From a virus: a stretch of DNA of 64,000 nt. The first letter of the stretch is position 1; each line of letters begins with the position of its first letter. The stretch spans positions 32,001 through 96,000 of the IMG/VR virus record IMGVR_UViG_3300045012_000181. One strand, given 5' to 3'. Below the pieces are notes generated by a model. The model did no database searches and had not been told where the DNA came from. It saw only the letters and a program-made list of their open reading frames with translations. Made by a program: the position numbers and the translations under genes. Shown piece after piece: positions 33-11,054 of this stretch.

Positions 33-1205
33 CTAGTCTTTGTAGGGATCTCTGATGTCCGGACCGGCCATCGCAACCCCGACCGGGACAAGTTGATGCA
101 GAATTTTGATGCTATCACCGTGTTCGGCCAGCACCTCAGGCAGCCTTTTGTAGCAATCCGGGCTCTCGTCCAACCCGGCTCCCCGCAGTTCCACATGGGC
201 CTTTTGGAGCCAACCGTCCATCATTTCCTTCGTGACCTTACCAGCACGCAGGACCGCACCGGTCTTCCGATGCACCTTGCCGGCGGCCTCCCGACGGCCC
301 ATAACACGTCCGGCGCCATGCACGGTGCTATAGAGCGAATACTGGGCCTCCTCGTTCTGCACGCCCTCCAAAATTACGCTGCGTTCGCCCATCGTGCCGC
401 CTACAAAGCCCCTCTGACCGGGAAAGGCCGGAGTGGCGCCTTTCCGTACAACCCACAGGTCCTCTCCGCCATGCGTCTCGCGCCAAGCGAAATTGTGGTG
501 GTTGTGTACCTCTTCCAAAATCTTGGCACCTAAAATCAAGGCGACTTTCTGACAGACCCAATCCCTGCCAGCGTAGGCATACTCTCCGGCCAGCTGCATG
601 CACTGCAAGTATTCCGCGCCCAGCGGACCCTCAACGGGTATCACACAGGGTTCCACGTCCATACCATCTTTGGCTCCGGCTTTGTTCAGAAACCAAGTTG
701 CGGTCTTGTGACCCAGCCCTCTAGAACCGAAGTGCACGCCCACCCAGACCCTATCCTGTTCATCCGTAAACAAGTCCACATAATGGTTGCCCGAGCCTAC
801 AGTTCCGAGCTGGTCGGATGCCATCTTCTTCAGGGGCGCGATGGCCTCACAGGACCAAGCCGGACTATCGAACAGCGCGTGGTCTACAGATTCAGCGTTC
901 TGGCGGCCAATGCCAAAGGCAATATTTTTCCACACATCATCCATGATTTGCCTGATGCCCGCTCGAAGCGCACTCCCGGGCATATCTGTTAAAACGGCCT
1001 TGTTACCGCAGGCGATATCGAAGCCCACGCCAGACGGCGAGATGCTGGCCTTGTAGGCCACCACGCCGCCGATTGGCACGGCATACCCAAAATGCCCATC
1101 CGCCATGAGGGCGGCTTTGTCGGCCGTTCGGGCACACGTGCGGATCTGCTTCAGGGTGTTTTCATCGTGCTTGCCCCAGATGGGAATGCCTTCAACGATG
1201 TTCAC
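33..1205 (-). CDS. rtcB: RtcB family RNA-splicing/repair ligase
   Basis: 390 aa. RtcB motifs MADGHxGYAVPIGGVVA, GFDIACGN, QLGTVGSGNHY, VHFGSRGLGH, HNHHNFAW, VRKGATPA, HGAGRVMGR, LDESPDCYK. Confidence 0.95.
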   Translation of the reverse strand: MNIVEGIPIWGKHDENTLKQIRTCARTADKAALMADGHFGYAVPIGGVVAYKASISPSGVGFDIACGNKAVLTDMPGSALRAGIRQIMDDVWKNIAFGIGRQNAESVDHALFDSPAWSCEAIAPLKKMASDQLGTVGSGNHYVDLFTDEQDRVWVGVHFGSRGLGHKTATWFLNKAGAKDGMDVEPCVIPVEGPLGAEYLQCMQLAGEYAYAGRDWVCQKVALILGAKILEEVHNHHNFAWRETHGGEDLWVVRKGATPAFPGQRGFVGGTMGERSVILEGVQNEEAQYSLYSTVHGAGRVMGRREAAGKVHRKTGAVLRAGKVTKEMMDGWLQKAHVELRGAGLDESPDCYKRLPEVLAEHGDSIKILHQLVPVGVAMAGPDIRDPYKD

Positions 1206-3037: not shown

Positions 3038-3478
3038 TTAGACTGAGGGCTGGACTGCTGGAGAGGCCTTCGTGGTCGATGGAACACAGGCCGGTGCGAC
3101 CAAGAGGCCCACACGCCTGCGAAAATTGGCCGAGCGCTCCTTGGGCCTTCGAACCTTCAGCCAGTAGGCCTTCCAAATGGCCTCTCGGGCCTCGCGGGGC
3201 ACCTGTTCCAGGGCTCTCGTGAGGGCCAGCCGGCTGGCCACGGACTTGACAAAATTGTCTTTCTTGCTGCACAGGGCTTCGCCCTTCAGGCCCGTGACGC
3301 AGTGCTTAGGCTCCGAAGTGCCCACGACGCAGATTCCCGTATGTACAAGTGCTCGCGTTACCACGTCCCAACTGCGACGTTTCCTACGGGACAGCTTGCT
3401 GTCATCCTCCAAAAACTCATGGTGGATATGGATGTACCAGTGTTGGGCCTTCTCGCCTTCACCTATTTCTAGGATCAT
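3038..3478 (-). CDS. Conserved-type phage protein with GxAxCxxxDxFxK...AxxRA motif; possible nucleotide-signal sponge (Acb4-like)
   Basis: Motif GEALCSKKDNFVKSVASRLALTRAL; AGGAG RBS upstream. The functional call rests on my recollection of the family motif only. Confidence 0.5.
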   Translation of the reverse strand: MILEIGEGEKAQHWYIHIHHEFLEDDSKLSRRKRRSWDVVTRALVHTGICVVGTSEPKHCVTGLKGEALCSKKDNFVKSVASRLALTRALEQVPREAREAIWKAYWLKVRRPKERSANFRRRVGLLVAPACVPSTTKASPAVQPSV

Positions 3479-3849: not shown

Positions 3850-4006
3850 GCTTAGTTGCAGCGCTCTGTGTGGCTTCGTATAGACCTAAGGCATCAATGG
3901 GTTTCTGCGTCAACTCCCATTGTACACGGCTGTCGTTTACAATAGCGTCCGTTGTGTTTTGGTCGATGCCCGAGCCCGCAAGCCACAAAACCAGATTAGT
4001 TTTCAT
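3776..4006 (-). CDS. Hypothetical protein
   Basis: ATGA overlap with the stop of the upstream NAMPT-like gene. Confidence 0.6.
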   Translation of the reverse strand: MKTNLVLWLAGSGIDQNTTDAIVNDSRVQWELTQKPIDALGLYEATQSAATKHGENAFPGDYARTKLEFLTLFSRC

Positions 4007-5451
4007 GTTCGTACGCGCTTTCGAATGGTATCGAAGTCCTCTCGAATCAACAACTTACCGTTGCTAAAAATCTTCTGGAAGGCACAGTTGTTAAGGGCTG
4101 CGGGCAACTGTTCATCTACGACATAAAGACCATCGGCCTTGCTGCTGTAAACAGCCGGAATGCCCTTCAAGGAGGCCTTGCTAAAACCGCCTTCGGCCGT
4201 AACGGGCTTCTTGAAAATATCCAGAATTTTGCCCGAACGCCTGACCGCAGTGGCCTTCATGGCGAATCCGTAGGTATCACGGGTGACGTATTCATAGGTA
4301 TAGGAACCTATTCCGAATACGATGTTAAACGGGCTCAGGCCCATCTTCACACAGCCCTCTAGAATGGCATCCGCACGCTCCAATGAGATGCCGTCGCCGT
4401 AAATCAAACCGGCTTTGTTGATGTGTCCGGCGCCGTCCGTGCCCAGCGCCCGGCGTAGCAGCTCTAAGGCCCCATAAGCCGCAGGGTGCGTGCCATAGGG
4501 TGCGTCGGAGTCGCCCAGCATGATCTTAACAGGGTCTCCGCTGTCCGGACGGATTACAACCTTGCCGTCCCGTGCGAGGATTTCCTTGCGCAGGGCCGGA
4601 ATGTACTCCATGAGAACCTTCCAAAGGTCCCAAGTATCCGATACGATGCTAACAATTCCAGTGGGATAGGTCTCCGTTATGAGACGCCTGAAGGTCTCGA
4701 ATTCACCATCCATACCACCGGCGCACATCACAGAATGTTCAGTGGCAGGGACGCTCCCACCACAGCTCAAGGGGGCATCATAGAATTCCCTAGCGGCCAG
4801 AATCGCGGGTATGGTATCCGTGCCGTTGAAGCTCAATAGATGACCCATACCGGAGAACATGGCGTCCTCCAACCCACTCATACCCCGATAGGAGAAATCG
4901 TGGCCCTGCCAATCCACGAAACTCAGGTCCTTCTCGCCAAAATTCCGGGCGTGCTTGATGAACAGTTCCCGGAAGCGGGCTGCTGTAGTTGCGGAGGTGG
5001 TGGACTTCCAGAGCGCATTAGATAACGCGGTCTCAAGAAAATTCGGAAGCCAATAGGCGCTATCATTGGTATTGGTTATGACAAGCATGGGCACGCCCAG
5101 CGGAACACGGGAGCCCTCCGGCAAGGCCCAAATATCCAGCGGAAGGTAGCCCAGTTCCCAGAGCCTTCTTATGTGGTCCAGTTTGGGCTCTTTGAGGCCC
5201 AATGTGGCCAGCACGAATTCCCTGTATTGTTCCGCTATAAGACTCCAACTCTGTTCAAAAAATGCCGGCTTCCAGCGCATGAGATTGTTCTGGATGAAGG
5301 CCCTTGCACCGAACCAGCGCACGTCCTTCTCGCCGGGTATTCGCGAACTGCGGGCCGTCCAGTTGGACCAGACCTGTTGCGTATCGGTGGGATATTGCTC
5401 CCAATGGTGAAGCTTATAAAAATCCGCGTGGTAAAGCGGTGAAGGGTTCAT
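4003..5451 (-). CDS. Nicotinamide phosphoribosyltransferase-like protein (NadV/Nampt family; NARP1 Namat candidate)
   Basis: 482 aa. Motifs ADFYKLHH, HDFSYRGM, HLLSFNGTDT, SVPATEHSVM, VSIVSDTWD, VVIRPDSGDP, IYGDGI, VFGIGSYTY, RDTYGFAMK. Confidence 0.93.
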   Translation of the reverse strand: MNPSPLYHADFYKLHHWEQYPTDTQQVWSNWTARSSRIPGEKDVRWFGARAFIQNNLMRWKPAFFEQSWSLIAEQYREFVLATLGLKEPKLDHIRRLWELGYLPLDIWALPEGSRVPLGVPMLVITNTNDSAYWLPNFLETALSNALWKSTTSATTAARFRELFIKHARNFGEKDLSFVDWQGHDFSYRGMSGLEDAMFSGMGHLLSFNGTDTIPAILAAREFYDAPLSCGGSVPATEHSVMCAGGMDGEFETFRRLITETYPTGIVSIVSDTWDLWKVLMEYIPALRKEILARDGKVVIRPDSGDPVKIMLGDSDAPYGTHPAAYGALELLRRALGTDGAGHINKAGLIYGDGISLERADAILEGCVKMGLSPFNIVFGIGSYTYEYVTRDTYGFAMKATAVRRSGKILDIFKKPVTAEGGFSKASLKGIPAVYSSKADGLYVVDEQLPAALNNCAFQKIFSNGKLLIREDFDTIRKRVRT

Positions 5452-5454
5452 AGA

Positions 5455-6315
5455 CTAGTCTCTCCCACAGTTGTTGCACTCGCAATCGCACTCTTCGGAT
5501 TCGGGCATCTGGATACTGTATTCCGAGGTGAAGACCTGCTTGAAGTGCTTCAGCAACACGGCCCTGCCCTTGGAGAAAATTCCATGGCTCACGTACAAAT
5601 ACAGTTTCAAGTCGGGATTGATTTTTAAGAGCGCCTTAGCCAACCCAATAAAGGTTCCGCCGCCGTCGCAGATGTCGTCTATAATGAGGGCCTTCTTGGC
5701 GCGCTCCACTTGCGGCAGGTCCTCCCACCACACACTGAAGCCGCTGAGTTTGCCCGTCTTGGCATCCCGTTGCTTTCGACAGCAGGCCGTGGGCAAGCTA
5801 TAACGCAGGATGTCATAACGCTTATCTGAGCCTTCATCCGGCAAAATCAATACGAGGTCCCTACGACCCAGTTTCCTTATGATGGGCTGAATTTGGTCGC
5901 ATTGTCTATCCGTGGGATTGAGGTTGGCCAGATTTTCAAACAAATTGTGCGCCACGCCACTGTGCACATCAAAAGTCCAAACCACGCTGAAGTTCAAATT
6001 GTTAATCAACCGGGCCCAAACACCCAGGCCATGACTATCCCCGCCCACGAATCGACGGTCCGCACGGGCATAGGGCATGTAGGGCAGGAATAGACTGGAA
6101 CGCCAGAATCCGCCGGCGTGCTCAAGGGCGTCCTTGAGTTGGGCCAGTTCTATGATATCCGGGATGGGGTTGCAGATAATCTCAAACTCGTCTTTGCCCT
6201 TCACAGCGGCCAGCCCTTTGGCCGTTAGCCGGACTTGGATTTCGCCAGCTGGATAGTGGATTACGCTGTAGAGCACGCCCCGGTCTTGGGGGATTTTGAG
6301 GGTGAGTTTTTTCAC
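5455..6315 (-). CDS. Ribose-phosphate pyrophosphokinase-like protein (Prs family; NARP1 Adps candidate)
   Basis: YPAGE, LPYMPYARADRR, DVHS, PDEG, KQRD, PRPP-binding loop IIDDICDGGGTF, YVSHGIFSKG. Confidence 0.9.
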   Translation of the reverse strand: MKKLTLKIPQDRGVLYSVIHYPAGEIQVRLTAKGLAAVKGKDEFEIICNPIPDIIELAQLKDALEHAGGFWRSSLFLPYMPYARADRRFVGGDSHGLGVWARLINNLNFSVVWTFDVHSGVAHNLFENLANLNPTDRQCDQIQPIIRKLGRRDLVLILPDEGSDKRYDILRYSLPTACCRKQRDAKTGKLSGFSVWWEDLPQVERAKKALIIDDICDGGGTFIGLAKALLKINPDLKLYLYVSHGIFSKGRAVLLKHFKQVFTSEYSIQMPESEECDCECNNCGRD

Positions 6316-7686: not shown

Positions 7687-9081
7687 TTAGTCGCGGGAAG
7701 CCTGCTTTTCTGTAGTCTGGATGTAGTTCAGCACGGCCTCAGACCAACCATCCACGTGGGTCCATGGGCCATATCCAATGCCGTTCTTGTACGACGCGAC
7801 ATTGATAAAATAACCCTGTTTGGGCATGCCATTGTAGGATGGGTTTCGGATGGCCTGGTGGCTCTGCTCATCCGTAATCACGACGATGCGGTCGTAGGAT
7901 TCCTTCTGCGCAAGCGCCAAGGCATCATCGGTGTGCGTGGCGTTGTGCGAGGTGGCGTTCTGGATGGCATCCCTCAGAGCAAAACCCCTCCGAGCCGGCA
8001 CCAACACGGGGTTCACGGAGTAGCTGATTACGAGGGCCTCCTCACAAATCTCTCGCAAAAGAATGGCTAGCGCACAGGCCGCGTCCGAGCGGTCCATGTC
8101 GGATTTCGCGGAGATTTTGGCGCCGTACATCGAGCCACTGTTGTCCACCACGATGCAGGTCTTACCGGGGAGCTTTTCGAAGCCCTCCAGAGAGCGCAAC
8201 ATGGCCTTCTCCAGCTCGGGTTCCCACTGCGGTACATATCGAGCGGCCGCCACGAACCTGAAGGGCAGGATGCGGTCGGTTTTCATTTCCAGCAAAGAGC
8301 CCCGGATGAGCTTCTCGGAGACACCGGCCTCTTTCATGTTGCGCAAATTGCGAATAAGGGCCAGTCCACCGAGCTTGTTCTCCGTAAGGAGGCGCTCCCA
8401 AGATTCCCGTTTGGCTTCGCCCTTACCGGCAGACAACTCAACCTCCCAAGTATCAGGAGTGGCCAGCTTGCCGTCAATCAGGCGCTTCCACAGTTGGGCC
8501 TGCGGCAGACCATCGCGTTCGGCCTTGGACATTCCCACACCCCAGCCCTCAGGTCGCGGATGCACAAGGAACAACACATCCCGTAGTTTGATGGCATTAT
8601 CGCGATTCCACTTCGCAAGCTGATATTCATTAAACTTCTGAAATGCCCTTTGGAGGCCCTTTTGGAGCTGGTGGGAAAGCCTGTTGAGTTTCTTGGTTCC
8701 GGTGCGCTCCCGACTGTAGATACTTAGAATCTCGGCCAGCTCGTCCGCACGCTGGATGATGCAGGCCACCAAATCCGCAACGACGTGCCTGTGCGTCTTG
8801 TGCTTGGCGCATTCCACAGCCAACAGCAGTGGAACATGGCGCAGATGCATGCGCTCACGGGCCTCGATGGCGATTTGCGCCACGGTCTCAGCGGGGACCT
8901 TAGGTACGAGCTCGCAGATGCGGGCCGCGATAGAGACGCCGCTTTCATAGAATTCGGATTCCCATAGCAGGCAGCTCATCACGCTTCGACGCAACTCCTG
9001 CTCAGGCGTGGCGTGCTGGTAGGCCGTTGCGCCTTCGAATGTGAGCTTCTTGGGACGCAGTTCCTTTTTATTTAGGTTCAT
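7687..9081 (-). CDS. rsr: Ro60/TROVE-domain RNA-binding protein (Rsr homolog) with C-terminal vWA domain
   Basis: TFEGA.AY, ELRRSVMSCLLWESEFYESG, IQRADEL, FNEYQLAKW, LRDVLFL.HP, TWEVELS, ALIRNLRN, LPFRFVAA, MIDAS motif VVDNSGSM, VITDEQ, INVASY. Confidence 0.95.
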   Translation of the reverse strand: MNLNKKELRPKKLTFEGATAYQHATPEQELRRSVMSCLLWESEFYESGVSIAARICELVPKVPAETVAQIAIEARERMHLRHVPLLLAVECAKHKTHRHVVADLVACIIQRADELAEILSIYSRERTGTKKLNRLSHQLQKGLQRAFQKFNEYQLAKWNRDNAIKLRDVLFLVHPRPEGWGVGMSKAERDGLPQAQLWKRLIDGKLATPDTWEVELSAGKGEAKRESWERLLTENKLGGLALIRNLRNMKEAGVSEKLIRGSLLEMKTDRILPFRFVAAARYVPQWEPELEKAMLRSLEGFEKLPGKTCIVVDNSGSMYGAKISAKSDMDRSDAACALAILLREICEEALVISYSVNPVLVPARRGFALRDAIQNATSHNATHTDDALALAQKESYDRIVVITDEQSHQAIRNPSYNGMPKQGYFINVASYKNGIGYGPWTHVDGWSEAVLNYIQTTEKQASRD

Positions 9082-9099
9082 GTGCTCTCCTTAAAAAAT

Positions 9100-9184
9100 G
9101 CCCGGGAATCAAGCGAATGCGGTTATGCCTGTTAGGGCATTCTCATTTTCAGTAAGAAGTAACCGCACTCTAACGTCACCGAGC
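9100..9184 (-). ncRNA. Y-RNA-like small RNA 1 (85 nt), immediately upstream of Ro60
   Basis: Terminal stem GCUCGG/CCGGGC; UGACGUUA opposite GCUUGAUU; 11-bp stem GAGUGCGGUUA/UAACCGCAUUC; UACUUC; two inner hairpins; 3' AUUUUUU followed by the Ro60 RBS. Confidence 0.8.
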
Positions 9185-9430
9185 CCTTACACGGTCTGGA
9201 ATATGCAACTGCAATAGCTTCACAACCTCTACAAGTTCGTAGTCACTAGTATGTGGGTAGTGTCCATGGCCGATGTCGCGAACGTATTCCACGGAGCGCA
9301 TCTGCGCCATTGTGGGATTGCGTTTTAACAGGTCCGTCAATGACAACTCTCTAACGTGTTCAGCTATACCGTAAACAAAATCTGTTTCGTTAGCCTCTCT
9401 GCCGCGCTTTACATACTCCTGAGGTGTCAC
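9176..9430 (-). CDS. Hypothetical protein embedded in the RNA array
   Basis: 84 aa, GGAGG RBS before a GTG start; its TGA lies inside the 5' strand of RNA 1. Confidence 0.5.
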   Translation of the reverse strand: MTPQEYVKRGREANETDFVYGIAEHVRELSLTDLLKRNPTMAQMRSVEYVRDIGHGHYPHTSDYELVEVVKLLQLHIPDRVRAR

Positions 9431-9445
9431 CGGGCCTCCAAAAAT

Positions 9446-9549
9446 ACACGGGCATCAGGCGAACTCAGAAATTGTGGGGTTTGAACCCACCACCGGCCCT
9501 TGCGGGCCAGTTCTTGACCAGAAGTATCTGAAGTTCTACGGCACCGTGT
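9446..9549 (-). ncRNA. Y-RNA-like small RNA 2 (104 nt) with a canonical T-arm
   Basis: ACACGG/CCGUGU terminal stem; UGCCGUA...UACUUC; GAACU(U)CAGA/UCUGAGUUC stem; GGCCC-GCAA-GGGCC hairpin; T-arm GUGGG-UUCAAAC-CCCAC; 3' CUGAUG; AUUUUU tail. Confidence 0.8.
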
Positions 9550-9559
9550 TCAAAATTAA

Positions 9560-9647
9560 AGCCGGAAGGGCAGCGACGTTTCTACGGCATTGGAGGATAC
9601 CACCTATTCGATGGTAGACGTTATTCACCCGCGCCACCCATCCGGTT
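9560..9647 (-). ncRNA. Unidentified structured RNA candidate (long branched hairpin)
   Basis: Nested stems CCGGA/UCCGG, GGG/CCC, UGGCG/CGCUG, ACGU/ACGU, UCUAC/GUAGA, followed by a U-rich tail; lacks the 5' Y motif. Confidence 0.45.
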
Positions 9648-9669
9648 GGTACTTTGTTGCAACAAAAAT

Positions 9670-9803
9670 CGAGGAGCATCAGACGATTGGGGTGTCTTTT
9701 TGACAGGCGCTCTCCCAACTGAGCTACGGTCTTGCGACCGACGGGGCTCGAACCCGCGACATCCTGTTTTACATGAAGTATCCCGCAATCTACGGCATCC
9801 TCG
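9670..9803 (-). ncRNA. yrlA: YrlA-like Y RNA (134 nt) with a circularly permuted tRNA-like domain
   Basis: CGAGGA/UCCUCG stem; UGCCGUA-GAUUG/CAAUC; ACAGG/CCUGU; T-arm GCGGG-UUCGAGC-CCCGU; capped acceptor CGGUC-GCAA-GACCG; UA; D-arm GCUC-AGUUGGGA-GAGC. This matches the published YrlA architecture. Confidence 0.88.
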
Positions 9804-9814
9804 TTGAACTCAAA

Positions 9815-9880
9815 GGTGGCGCAACAGGCACCCAAGGAGTTTTCATCCATTAGAAGTATCCATGGGTTACGGCAGCCACC
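9815..9880 (-). ncRNA. Minimal Y-RNA-like small RNA 4 (66 nt)
   Basis: GGUGGC/GCCACC; UGCCGUA opposite GCCUGUUGC; ACCCA/UGGGU; GGA/UCC; loop begins UACUUC. Confidence 0.75.
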
Positions 9881-10039
9881 CGGAGCGTAGCTCCGTTAAA
9901 ACCATCCGTCGCATAAAAATCATGGGCACAACGTCTCCCGATTAGTGCTCTCCCGCTTCGGAGCTGTCGGATGCGCCCTGCGGGCTGTGTTCTTTGACGC
10001 AGCCAACGACCTGTAGTACGGCCCCGGTCGCCTCGGAAT

Positions 10040-10330
10040 TTAACGCTGCACAACGACTTGCGAGGCCTTCTGAGTTTCCAGGGCCTTACGAATCTCAGTG
10101 CTCATATACTGCAGGGCCTTGGCTTCGGCCTCAAACTTAGCGGCCTTGACTTCAGAGGCCTGTTGGTCAGCGGTGCGTTGCTCGGCCAGTTTCTCGCGTT
10201 GCAACTCCACATTCAGGGCGTGTTCGGCCCGACGCATGACATTGCCGTGCAACGTACAGACCATGCTGGCCAGCGCAATGCTCGCTGTCATTCCAAATGC
10301 GCCCAGCATAATACAAGGTGTTATGTCCAT
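10040..10330 (-). CDS. Small membrane-anchored coiled-coil protein (start reassigned to ATG 10330)
   Basis: GAGGAG RBS upstream of ATG 10330; N-terminal hydrophobic helix, then a charged helix. Confidence 0.6.
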   Translation of the reverse strand: MDITPCIMLGAFGMTASIALASMVCTLHGNVMRRAEHALNVELQREKLAEQRTADQQASEVKAAKFEAEAKALQYMSTEIRKALETQKASQVVVQR

Positions 10331-10348
10331 GGTTTTCTCCTCAAAATC

Positions 10349-10417
10349 GAGCGCCTTTTGGTTCTCTGTTCTACATATCAACCCGGCCCGGCGCTTAACA
10401 GGCGCTTTCGGACGCTC
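10349..10417 (-). ncRNA. Mini tRNA-like RNA candidate with an Asn-type anticodon arm
   Basis: 7-bp closing stem GAGCGUC/GGCGCUC; inner GCGC-CUGUUAA-GCGC; GAUUUUG tail like the neighbouring Y RNAs. Confidence 0.4.
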
Positions 10418-10433
10418 TACCAACTCAAAATCA

Positions 10434-10520
10434 ACGCAGGGCATCAATCGTCTGGAGCGGTGCCTCCTTGACGGAGGCGCTTCTTAACGGGAAGTAGCTC
10501 CAGGCATACGGCACCTGCGC
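10434..10520 (-). ncRNA. Y-RNA-like small RNA 5 (87 nt), first of the array
   Basis: GCGCAGG/CCUGCGU; UGCCGUA opposite AUUGAUGC; CUGGAGC/GCUCCAG; UACUUC; GCCUCC-GUCAA-GGAGGC hairpin; GAUUUUG tail. Confidence 0.78.
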
Positions 10521-10530
10521 TTTAGAATCA
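10520..10530 (+). promoter_or_regulatory. CTTTAGAATCA motif (exact copies also at 22460-22470, and inverted at 14527-14537 and 20310-20320)
   Basis: Four exact 11-mers plus near copies, mostly intergenic; this one abuts the 5' end of Y RNA 5. Confidence 0.5.
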
Positions 10531-10643
10531 AAATTTGTTCCAGAACCAAGTCAAGGCACGCCTCACCAGCGTATAGAGGCCCCAGAGTGCCAGCAGTAGC
10601 AAGCCCGTGCAGAAACCAAGGGCTTTCACGCCTTCCTGAGACA

Positions 10644-11054
10644 TTAGTGCTTCACCGGACTGGGAACCGTATTCGCGGAGATGTCAAAGAGCACTTCATC
10701 CACTACGTATTCCCTGCCCCCGGGGCAAAGGGCCTTGGTCGCGGTCACCACAACATCCGGGCTGAGAATGGCCGCTTTTCGAATAACAGTGCATTGCAGC
10801 AGCCCAAGTGGGGGATTGTCCGAGCCTTTCAGGCGGCCCATGCCCAACGTTGGCGTCATGAGGGGCTTGAAGTATGCGTGCCCTTCGCGTTCGCGCTCCA
10901 TATTGAACCAAACTTTCCCGATAACAATTTCCTGGCCGGGGAAGTCCAGCACCTGTCCAACACGCCATTGTCCTCCTAGAGGCGCATCAGCACACAAGAT
11001 GGCGCTGCCGGTTAACAAGAGGGCCCCAGTCCAAAGTGCTCGCAGGTTGTGCAT
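10644..11054 (-). CDS. Hypothetical secreted/periplasmic protein
   Basis: N-terminal signal-peptide-like MHNLRALWTGALLLTGSAILCA; GGGAG RBS. Confidence 0.55.
   Translation of the reverse strand: MHNLRALWTGALLLTGSAILCADAPLGGQWRVGQVLDFPGQEIVIGKVWFNMEREREGHAYFKPLMTPTLGMGRLKGSDNPPLGLLQCTVIRKAAILSPDVVVTATKALCPGGREYVVDEVLFDISANTVPSPVKH

What the first reader, a model, noticed from the sequence alone, without database searches (positions are those of the whole stretch)
9100..10520. Phage Ro60 preceded by an array of at least five distinct Y-RNA-like RNAs sharing one scaffold
Seen: five units on the minus strand (10434-10520, 9815-9880, 9670-9803, 9446-9549, 9100-9184). Each folds so its ends pair. 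Each has 5' UGCCGUA-N9-10-UACUUC (UGACGUUA in unit 1) opposite 3' YUGWUKC and ends in a U-rich tail. The flanking stems differ in sequence but keep pairing (natural covariation), and the apical cargo differs in each. Established: bacterial and phage Ro60 genes lie next to Y RNAs (YrlA/YrlB; Salmonella rsr-yrlBA-rtcBA), typically one or two per locus as far as I know. Inference: this phage builds several alternative Ro60 RNPs from a diversified RNA library (66-134 nt), each recruiting or decoying a different partner. This is my best candidate for the undescribed system in the window.
Basis: partly seen in the sequence, partly recalled or inferred. Interest (0 to 1): 0.92.

Follow-up and report, generated by a model that had tools for sequence, protein, structure and literature searches.

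The report
Five Y RNAs beside phage Ro60
A soil phage carries five small RNA genes with one shared Ro60-binding "handle" and different tips just upstream of its Ro60 gene; this is the known Ro60/Y-RNA system, and similar arrays of 2-8 RNAs turn out to be common in other phages and in soil Acidobacteria.

Summary
Five minus-strand units (10521-10427, 9882-9810, 9805-9662, 9551-9438, 9186-9092) share one scaffold: closing stem, bulged U, GC, CGUA, second stem, UACUUC, variable tip, YUGWUKC, closing stem, U-rich tail. A covariance model built from four units found the fifth (E 1.8e-9) and nothing else in the 125.6-kb virus record. The stems covary.

The gene at 7687-9081 is a true Ro60 (TROVE plus vWA; the model matches solved Ro60 structures). 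Unit C carries a YrlA-type permuted tRNA-like tip. Unit D has a T-arm.

The array is not exceptional. The same handle occurs only on the Ro60 strand next to Ro60:
- Caulobacter phage CcrColossus: 8 units.
- Brevundimonas phage Bambus and Xanthomonas phage MET23-P3: 5 each.
- 77 uncultured viral loci: mostly 2-3, and 5 in five loci.
- 60 chromosomal Terriglobia loci: about half have 5 or more.

An RtcB RNA ligase lies 6.5 kb downstream on the same strand, as in Salmonella rsr-yrlBA-rtcBA.

Verdict: a real, ordinary member of the Ro60/Y-RNA kind. The multi-RNA, modular-tip layout was not described in the papers I could search. This scan has already noted such arrays many times on other DNA. Different partners for each RNA remain untested inference.

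The parts
10427..10521 (-). Y-RNA-like unit A: handle plus two tip hairpins (CUUC-CCGUUAA-GAAG and GCCUCC-GUCAA-GGAGGC)
   Evidence: Fold z -4.2. R1 87 bits. R2 51 bits, E 2.9e-14.
10040..10330 (-). Probable small protein gene (96 aa, N-terminal hydrophobic segment) interrupting the array; not part of the conserved module
   Evidence: SD-led ATG. Best codon-usage score of the six frames. No PHROG family and no homolog in other Ro60 loci.
9810..9882 (-). Y-RNA-like unit B: minimal unit, handle plus UACUUC-loop-GAAAAC
   Evidence: Found as a held-out sequence by R1 at 38.2 bits, E 1.8e-9. R2 53 bits. Belongs to the commonest ('short') class in the family.
9662..9805 (-). Y-RNA-like unit C: YrlA-type, tip is a permuted tRNA-like module (T-arm, GCAA hairpin, D-arm)
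   Evidence: Rfam RF02553 YrlA 33 bits, E 7.7e-5, below the gathering score of 69. R2 60 bits.
9552..9661 (-). Spacer hairpin with paired ends and U tail; possibly a degenerate sixth unit. It repeats 11 of 12 bases of unit D's UGCCGUAGAAC.
   Evidence: Fold z -1.8. No hit with R1 or R2 even with filters off.
9438..9551 (-). Y-RNA-like unit D: tip has three hairpins, the last a T-arm (GUGGG-UUCAAAC-CCCAC)
   Evidence: Fold z -3.4. R2 62 bits, E 1.2e-17. T-arm motif.
9176..9430 (-). Probable small ORF (84 aa, GTG start). Its stop codon lies inside unit E's UGACGUUA.
   Evidence: Best of six frames but with a weak codon score. No homologs.
9092..9186 (-). Y-RNA-like unit E: variant handle (GA:UC pair, CGUUA) and two tip hairpins. 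It ends about 8 nt before the Ro60 Shine-Dalgarno sequence.
   Evidence: Fold z -3.6. R2 56 bits. Sequence read directly.
7687..9081 (-). Ro60 (TROVE ring plus vWA domain with DxSxS MIDAS motif)
   Evidence: Pfam TROVE 1.1e-18, vWA_Ro60 and VWA_2. phmmer to phiLo Ro60 9KOP at 7.5e-22 over residues 13-458. AF2 model pLDDT 83; best PDB folds are all Ro60 (9KOP TM 0.70, 1YVP 0.69, 2NVO 0.59). D313, S315 and S317 are invariant.
33..1205 (-). RtcB RNA ligase on the same strand, 6.5 kb downstream (context, possible functional partner)
   Evidence: PF01139 216.7 bits. RtcB also lies beside or inside the arrays of about nine Terriglobia Ro60 loci.

Best explanation
These are five Y RNA genes of a phage Ro60/Y-RNA module.

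Shown here:
- Each RNA closes on itself through a covarying terminal helix.
- Each carries a conserved handle: bulged U, G-C/C-G pairs, GCCGUA opposite YUGAUGC, a second helix, then the junction UACUUC.
- The handle is a variant of the published Ro60-binding element of YrlA-type Y RNAs.
- The handle is found only next to Ro60 genes.

Inferred:
- Ro60 (7687-9081) binds every unit through this handle.
- The differing tips give each RNP a different property. The tips are: none (B), YrlA-type tRNA mimic (C), T-arm (D), and plain hairpins (A, E).
- By analogy with Deinococcus Yrn1 and Thermus phage phiLo, the T-arm-bearing units would tether Ro60 to the host's PNPase. The phage encodes none.
- Minimal units would mainly gate or occupy the Ro60 ring.
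- Together with the phage RtcB ligase, the module would reshape host RNA decay and repair during infection.

The units have no recognisable promoters of their own. They are interleaved with small ORFs on the Ro60 strand, so they are probably cut out of a long transcript. Units within this genome share lineage-specific handle letters (C-G instead of the family's G-C; UGAU instead of UGUU). That points to local duplication and co-evolution with the cognate Ro60.
For: - Scaffold and covariation in the window.
- Family-wide covariation in 138 distinct viral units: 93.7% paired, all 17 pairs with compensatory changes, score 0.858 against 0.216 in shuffles and at most 0.15 when slid.
- Ro60 identity.
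- YrlA match of unit C. Sub-threshold YrlA matches of one or more units in relatives.
- Linkage: all 194 viral hits and all 245 Terriglobia hits at E<=1e-4 are on the Ro60 strand within 3.5 kb.
- Specificity: in the complete genomes of CcrColossus, Bambus and MET23-P3, the only hits (8, 5, 5) are in the array beside Ro60.
- Published basis: the GNCGAAN0-1G motif and same-strand YrlA within 4 kb of Ro60 (PMC4201824). phiLo Ro60 binds two phage Y-like RNAs and host PNPase (PMC12135203).
- RtcB in the same gene block, and beside Terriglobia arrays.
- No PNPase/RNase PH domain and no tRNA in the record.
- Lineage-specific pair: C-G at the inner handle pair occurs in only 6 of 138 family members, but in four of the five window units.
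Against: - There is no expression or binding data for this phage.
- No unit reaches an Rfam gathering score. The metazoan Y_RNA model gives no hit at all.
- The motif differs from the published GNCGAA at one base.
- The experimentally bound phiLo Yrl1 and Yrl2 are not matched by my family model. The link from 'this handle' to 'binds Ro60' therefore rests on co-occurrence and resemblance.
- The tips have no sequence relatives, so partner assignment is analogy only.
- Alignments A5 and A7 were fitted to the model structure, which inflates pair counts somewhat.
Confidence: 0.8

Rival explanations
1. The RNAs are the effectors and Ro60 is only their chaperone. The tips would be tRNA or anticodon-loop look-alikes that soak up host tRNA-targeting defence nucleases or tRNA enzymes, and RtcB would repair what is still cut.
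For: - Unit C is a tRNA mimic and unit D has a T-arm.
- Unit E's first hairpin has the loop CUGAAAA, identical in pattern to a tRNA-Phe anticodon loop.
- RtcB lies in the same block.
- The phage has no tRNA genes of its own.
Against: - YrlA-type mimics lack an anticodon arm (PMC4201824).
- Only one of about eight tip hairpins fits the anticodon-loop rule YU-NNN-RN, which is about what chance gives.
- The family-wide conserved loop positions after UACUUC do not fit that rule.
- The commonest unit class has no cargo at all (45% short units).
Confidence: 0.1
2. The units are cis-acting mRNA elements of the operon (processing sites, stabilisers, terminators, or Ro60 operators that autoregulate translation) rather than free small RNAs.
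For: - The units lie in one transcription direction between ORFs, with no promoter-like sites above chance.
- Each ends in a stem followed by a U run.
- Unit E overlaps the stop codon of the upstream ORF and ends about 8 nt before the Ro60 ribosome-binding site.
Against: - In relatives the units stand back to back, up to eight in 1.2 kb, with no ORFs between them.
- Some arrays lie downstream of Ro60.
- Published YrlA, YrlB and Yrn1 accumulate as free RNAs (PMC4201824).
- A regulatory role for unit E could coexist with the main explanation.
Confidence: 0.07
3. The units are decayed repeats (tRNA-gene remnants or a small mobile repeat) with no function.
For: - Two units contain tRNA-like arms.
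- A partial duplicate of unit D's 5' handle sits in the spacer 9552-9661.
Against: - Compensatory changes keep both helices paired in the window and across 138 distinct relatives.
- The association with Ro60 is strict in place and strand.
- No copies occur elsewhere in the record.
Confidence: 0.03

Closest known systems
Bacterial Rsr (Ro60) with YrlA/YrlB Y RNAs, e.g. Salmonella rsr-yrlBA-rtcBA (Chen et al. 2014, PMC4201824; Rfam RF02553)
   Same: - Y RNAs on the Ro60 strand within a few kb.
- Terminal helix with a GNCGAA-like element.
- One RNA with a permuted T-arm/D-arm tRNA mimic (unit C), and another with only a T-arm (unit D, like YrlB).
- An RtcB ligase in the neighbourhood.
   Different: - Five RNAs instead of two.
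- Motif GCCGUA, not GNCGAA.
- An invariant UACUUC junction that I do not see in the Rfam YrlA consensus.
- Three units (A, B, E) have no tRNA-like part.
- No unit passes the Rfam threshold.
- RtcB is 6.5 kb away, with NAD-salvage genes in between.
- No RtcR or RtcA was seen.
Thermus phage phiLo Ro60 with Yrl1 and Yrl2 (PMC12135203; PDB 9KOP, 9L5Y)
   Same: - A phage-encoded Ro60 of the same fold (TM 0.70) with several Y-like RNAs beside it.
- No phage PNPase, so a host partner is expected.
   Different: - 27% protein identity.
- Two published RNAs against five here.
- The published Yrl1/2 region is not matched by the handle model. A different, unpublished candidate downstream of the phiLo gene is matched.
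Deinococcus radiodurans Rsr-Yrn1-PNPase (RYPER) and the four small RNAs upstream of rsr
   Same: - Several small RNAs encoded upstream of rsr.
- A T-arm-like module is used as the tether.
- It supplies the working model for how tips could recruit an exonuclease.
   Different: - Yrn1 is evolutionarily distant from YrlA-type RNAs (PMC4201824).
- It is a cellular stress system, not a viral one.
- No PNPase contact has been tested here.
Arrays of the same handle family found here in cultured phages (CcrColossus 8, Bambus 5, MET23-P3 5, Rhizobium RHph_TM21B 4-6) and in Terriglobia chromosomes (up to 7 in 3.5 kb)
   Same: - The same handle, including UACUUC.
- The same strand and position relative to Ro60.
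- The same mix of short, T-arm, T+D and other tips.
   Different: - In those phages the units stand back to back. In the window the array is broken up by two small ORFs and two spacers.
- The window's handle letters (GC/GC, UGAU) are lineage-specific.

Membership tests
Ro60 / Rsr protein (TROVE) | TROVE HEAT-repeat ring followed by a vWA domain with a MIDAS motif | tested here: met
   Pfam TROVE 68 bits. vWA_Ro60 at 25.3 bits and VWA_2 at 26.8 bits fall just under their cut-offs. Full-length match to PDB 9KOP. AF2 model has pTM 0.81 and its 13 best PDB folds are all Ro60. DxSxS is invariant.
Y RNA (general definition) | RNA of about 70-130 nt whose 5' and 3' ends pair into a long stem with a conserved bulged helix, plus a large internal loop | tested here: met
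   Units are 73-144 nt. Folds. Covariation.
Y RNA (general definition) | Bound by Ro60 | not testable with these tools
   Only genomic linkage is available: all 439 further hits are on the Ro60 strand beside Ro60, and hits in whole genomes occur nowhere else.
YrlA (Rfam RF02553; Chen et al. 2014) | Encoded within about 4 kb of Ro60 on the same strand | tested here: met
   The units lie 11-1440 nt upstream of the Ro60 start on the minus strand.
YrlA (Rfam RF02553; Chen et al. 2014) | GNCGAAN0-1G motif in the terminal stem | tested here: inconclusive
   Units A-D read GCCGUA(N)G-like, with U in place of the first A. Unit E reads GACGUUAG. Relatives range over GGCGUAG, GGUGAAG and GACGAAG.
YrlA (Rfam RF02553; Chen et al. 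2014) | tRNA-like domain with T-arm and D-arm | tested here: met
   Met for unit C only. Unit D has a T-arm only. Units A, B and E have neither. Only C can be filed as YrlA-type.
YrlA (Rfam RF02553; Chen et al. 2014) | Score at or above Rfam's gathering threshold (69 bits) | tested here: not met
   33 bits for unit C. No family reaches its gathering score anywhere in the window.
Metazoan Y_RNA (Rfam RF00019) | Match to the covariance model | tested here: not met
   No hit up to E = 10 in 8900-10800.
rsr-Y RNA-rtcB RNA repair operon | RtcB ligase linked to rsr and the Y RNAs | tested here: inconclusive
   RtcB is present on the same strand but 6.5 kb away, behind NAD-salvage genes. Tight linkage is seen in several Terriglobia loci. 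RtcA and RtcR were not sought.

The most novel reading that the evidence does not exclude
The UACUUC-handle RNAs form a distinct, undescribed branch of Y RNAs that works as an exchangeable adaptor set. One Ro60 ring is programmed by 2-8 RNAs whose tips each address a different host factor (PNPase, tRNA enzymes, anticodon nucleases). The conserved UAC/A-rich junction would be a second protein-contact site. In phages the set acts with RtcB as a counter-defence against RNA-targeting immunity.
Probability: 0.12. Interest if true: 0.8.

Novelty: new variant of a known kind. Interest (0 to 1): 0.48.

Why it matters
Ro60/Y-RNA particles are understood from a few species with one to four Y RNAs. This locus and its many relatives show that, in phages and in soil Acidobacteria, one Ro60 gene commonly comes with a row of Y RNAs. 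These keep a strict handle and swap tips. If each tip addresses a different partner, that would be a natural system for asking how Y RNAs specify Ro60 function. It is directly testable in culturable relatives found here: CcrColossus on Caulobacter, MET23-P3/Usme-type phages on Xanthomonas, and the Brevundimonas jumbo phages. The locus also flags likely mis-annotations, for example a 'tRNA-Gln' inside a CcrColossus unit. For this particular window the result is mostly confirmatory.

Tried and rejected
- Rfam at gathering thresholds: nothing in the window. At E<=10, only YrlA on unit C and no metazoan Y_RNA.
- ARAGORN and Rfam tRNA: no tRNA in the window or the record.
- Promoter and terminator scan: nothing above shuffles on the minus strand except a spurious small hairpin at unit E's end.
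- Spacers 9883-10039 and 9552-9661 as extra units: no hit with R1 or R2 with filters off. Fold z-scores are -0.1 and -1.8.
- MAFFT alone misaligned unit B, so B was kept as a held-out test instead.
- blastn-short of each unit against about 170 related loci: only unit C's generic D-arm matches, so no orthologous tips were found.
- tblastn of all neighbouring ORFs against those loci: none is conserved beside Ro60 except RtcB in some Terriglobia loci. PHROGs gave nothing for the small ORFs.
- A simple regex for the handle was both leaky and incomplete and was dropped.
- The IQ-TREE run did not finish. FastTree was used instead.
- Sequencing runs: no RNA holder listed. The only full holder is a soil metagenome that may be the source.
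- Metagenome scan: no Ro60 closer than about 61% identity, so no close relatives for unit-by-unit conservation.
- The published phiLo Yrl1/2 region is not recognised by R2.
- The review PMC10870794 is not held. The supplement tables of PMC4201824 are not held. I therefore could not see how many RNAs per phage were listed there.
Full report
**What is there.** On the minus strand upstream of ORF 7687-9081 lie five units:
- A: 10521-10427
- B: 9882-9810
- C: 9805-9662
- D: 9551-9438
- E: 9186-9092

Read directly, each has this order of parts:
- a 6-8 bp closing stem
- a bulged U
- two pairs (G-C and C-G; G-C and A-U in unit E)
- CGUA (CGUUA in unit E)
- a second stem of about 8 bp
- the hexamer UACUUC
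- a variable tip
- the return strand of stem 2
- GYYUGAU (AUUGAU in A, GCCUGUU in B)
- the return of the two pairs and of the closing stem
- a U-rich tail

RNAfold gives the same layout for all five. The z-scores are -4.2, -3.2, -1.4, -3.4 and -3.6.

**Is it more than chance?** I built a covariance model (R1) from A, C, D and E.
- It found the held-out unit B at 38.2 bits (E 1.8e-9) and nothing else in the window up to E = 10.
- With filters off it found nothing further above 6.1 bits, E 1.9 or worse.
- It found no unit outside this locus in the 125,606-bp IMG/VR virus record that holds the window.
- Among the five units the closing helix is 100% paired, with changes on both sides at 6 of 8 pairs.
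- The whole scaffold is 90.5% paired. Shuffles give 58.6% (0 of 500 as high) and slid partners give 33-45%.

A broader model (R2) again finds exactly five.

The 110-nt spacer 9552-9661 folds with paired ends and a U tail. It repeats 11 of 12 bases of unit D's UGCCGUAGAAC. It lacks CGUAG and UACUUC and scores nothing.

**The protein.** ORF 7687-9081 is Ro60.
- Pfam gives TROVE at 1.1e-18 plus vWA.
- It aligns over its full length to Thermus phage phiLo Ro60, PDB 9KOP (E 7.5e-22).
- The AlphaFold model has pLDDT 83 and pTM 0.81.
- Its 13 best PDB matches are all Ro60 structures: 9KOP TM 0.70, Xenopus 1YVP 0.69, Deinococcus 2NVO 0.59.
- The MIDAS DxSxS motif is invariant in the family alignments.

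**What the RNAs are.** Unit C's tip matches Rfam YrlA positions 23-85, which cover the T-arm, the 'AS' hairpin and the D-arm. The score is 33 bits (E 7.7e-5), below the gathering score of 69.

Chen et al. 2014 (PMC4201824) defined YrlA-type Y RNAs by three features:
- a GNCGAAN0-1G element in the terminal stem
- a tRNA-like domain
- a position within 4 kb of Ro60 on the same strand

The window's GCCGUA differs from that motif by one base. In the wider family the 5' GGCGUAG and 3' UUGUUCC can be written as one helix with a C-U mismatch and wobble pairs beside the bulged U (this is my reading). That is the kind of bulged conserved helix that Ro60 recognises in other Y RNAs.

Unit D carries a T-arm only, as described for YrlB. 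Unit B is a minimal unit. Units A and E carry plain hairpins.

**Relatives.** R1 was made from this window alone. It already found same-strand arrays beside Ro60 in other phages. R2 gives these counts:

| Locus | Units |
|---|---|
| Caulobacter phage CcrColossus | 8 |
| Uncultured viral contig L008 | 7 |
| Uncultured viral contig L009 | 7 |
| Brevundimonas phage Bambus | 5 |
| Xanthomonas phage MET23-P3 (43 kb) | 5 |
| Rhizobium phage RHph_TM21B | 4-6 |
| Microcystis phage Mvi-JY20 | 2 |
| A crAss-like phage | 1 |
| Ralstonia phage RsoM2USA | 0 |

In the complete genomes of CcrColossus, Bambus and MET23-P3, every hit lies in the array beside Ro60.

In 77 further IMG/VR Ro60 loci there are 194 hits at E<=1e-4, all on the Ro60 strand. 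By my hand tally most loci have 2-3 units, eight loci have 4 and five loci have 5.

In 60 chromosomal Ro60 loci of Acidobacteriota (Terriglobia) there are 245 hits, all on the Ro60 strand. About half of these loci hold 5-7 units within the 3.5 kb fetched. These proteins are 55-59% identical to the window's and are flanked by housekeeping genes.

Across 138 distinct viral units both helices are 93.7% paired, and all 17 pairs show compensatory changes. That alignment was fitted to the model, which flatters the figure somewhat.

The family consensus is ggUgGnGnAg-(stem)-cgGuUACUUC ... Ccg-(stem)-cGnuugUUCccc. By a rough motif classification the tips fall into four main classes:
- short: 45%
- T plus D arms: 23%
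- T-arm only: 11%
- other: 19%

The window holds one short unit, one T+D unit, one T-arm unit and two 'other' units.

In short units the tip reads UACUUC, then 5-9 nt, then GAAAA. That suggests a UUC/GAA mini-helix under a conserved UAC/A-rich internal loop. Cargo is inserted 3' of this hairpin. What the UACUUC junction does is unexplained.

**Origin and context.**
- In a FastTree of 62 Ro60 proteins the window falls in a clade of viral sequences (support 99). That clade is sister, with weak support (84), to the Terriglobia chromosomal clade.
- The DNA comes from soil metagenomes. An acidobacterial host is therefore plausible but not shown.
- Four of the five window units carry C-G at the inner handle pair, against 6 of 138 in the family. 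They also carry UGAU rather than UGUU. This indicates duplication within this lineage and co-evolution with its Ro60.
- No tip has a sequence relative elsewhere.
- Unlike the back-to-back arrays of relatives, this array is interrupted by two probable small genes, 10040-10330 and 9176-9430. Both are best of six frames by codon usage, and neither has homologs.
- No promoter-like sites stand out, so co-transcription and processing is the simplest reading.
- Unit E overlaps the stop codon of the upstream ORF and ends about 8 nt before the Ro60 ribosome-binding site. Feedback on Ro60 translation is therefore conceivable.
- On the same strand downstream lie a DUF5317 protein, a phrog_1843 protein, a ribose-phosphate-pyrophosphokinase-like gene, a NAMPT-family gene, a lipase_3 protein and an RtcB RNA ligase at 33-1205.
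- RtcB also sits beside or inside the arrays of about nine Terriglobia loci. This echoes Salmonella rsr-yrlBA-rtcBA.
- The record has no PNPase/RNase PH domain and no tRNA.

**How it most likely works.**

Shown:
- a conserved, covarying handle
- strict linkage of that handle to Ro60
- one YrlA-type tRNA mimic

Inferred:
- Ro60 binds all five RNAs through the handle.
- The tips set what each particle does.
- By analogy with Deinococcus RYPER and with phiLo, the T-arm units may tether host PNPase. In phiLo, Ro60 plus Yrl RNAs bind host PNPase and slow it (PMC12135203).
- Minimal units may gate the ring.

The decoy reading (tRNA or anticodon-loop mimicry working with RtcB) is not excluded, but the family-wide pattern does not support it.

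**Known or new.**
- Ro60 with Y RNAs in bacteria and phages is established: 22 phages in PMC4201824, and phiLo with two RNAs.
- I found no paper in the held library describing arrays of five to eight phage or acidobacterial Y RNAs, or the UACUUC junction.
- I could not read the supplement tables of Chen et al. 2014 or the 2020 review.
- This scan has noted similar arrays many times on other DNA.
- The window's locus is thus a regular member of a widespread but poorly described multi-RNA variant of a known system. It is not a new system.

Noticed in passing
window 33-1205 (-): RtcB RNA ligase (PF01139, 217 bits) in the same leftward gene block as Ro60. RtcB is also embedded in or next to the Y-RNA arrays of several Terriglobia Ro60 loci (e.g. 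L168:2211-3272).
   Followed up: partly
window 4003-6315 (-): An adjacent pair: a NAMPT-family phosphoribosyltransferase (phrog_448) and a ribose-phosphate-pyrophosphokinase-like protein (phrog_619). From my own knowledge this resembles phage NAD-reconstitution (NARP1-type) counter-defence genes. It sits between Ro60 and RtcB.
   Followed up: no
window 9552-9661 (-): A hairpin RNA candidate with paired ends and a U tail between units C and D. It keeps the outer handle (stem, U bulge, GG:CC) and repeats 11 of 12 bases of unit D's UGCCGUAGAAC, but lacks CGUAG and UACUUC. Possibly a decayed unit.
   Followed up: partly
L012:3128-3195 (Caulobacter phage CcrColossus, JX100810.1): The annotated 'tRNA-Gln' lies inside Y-RNA unit 3122-3296 and does not reach the Rfam tRNA threshold. 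It is probably the tRNA-like tip of a Y RNA, not a tRNA gene. The 1.4-kb 'intergenic' gap upstream of the TROVE gene holds eight units.
   Followed up: partly
L177:4479-4552 (Thermus phage phiLo, MH673673.1): The handle model hits one candidate just downstream of phiLo Ro60 (E 2e-5, with UACUUC), overlapping the annotated CDS phiLo_25. The published Yrl1/Yrl2 region upstream is not matched.
   Followed up: no
L097-L176 (Acidobacteriota MAG contigs): Chromosomal Ro60 genes of Terriglobia are preceded by arrays of up to seven handle-bearing RNAs within 3.5 kb, flanked by housekeeping genes. This appears to be the richest reservoir of the family.
   Followed up: partly
window 9140-9165 (-), inside unit E: The first tip hairpin has a 6-bp stem and the 7-nt loop CUGAAAA, the pattern of a tRNA-Phe anticodon loop. 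This is probably chance: one of about eight tip hairpins fits the rule.
   Followed up: partly
L013:7783-8040 (Brevundimonas phage Bambus): A permuted tmRNA (Rfam RF04321, 57.9 bits) a few kb from the Ro60/Y-RNA array, among tRNA genes.
   Followed up: no
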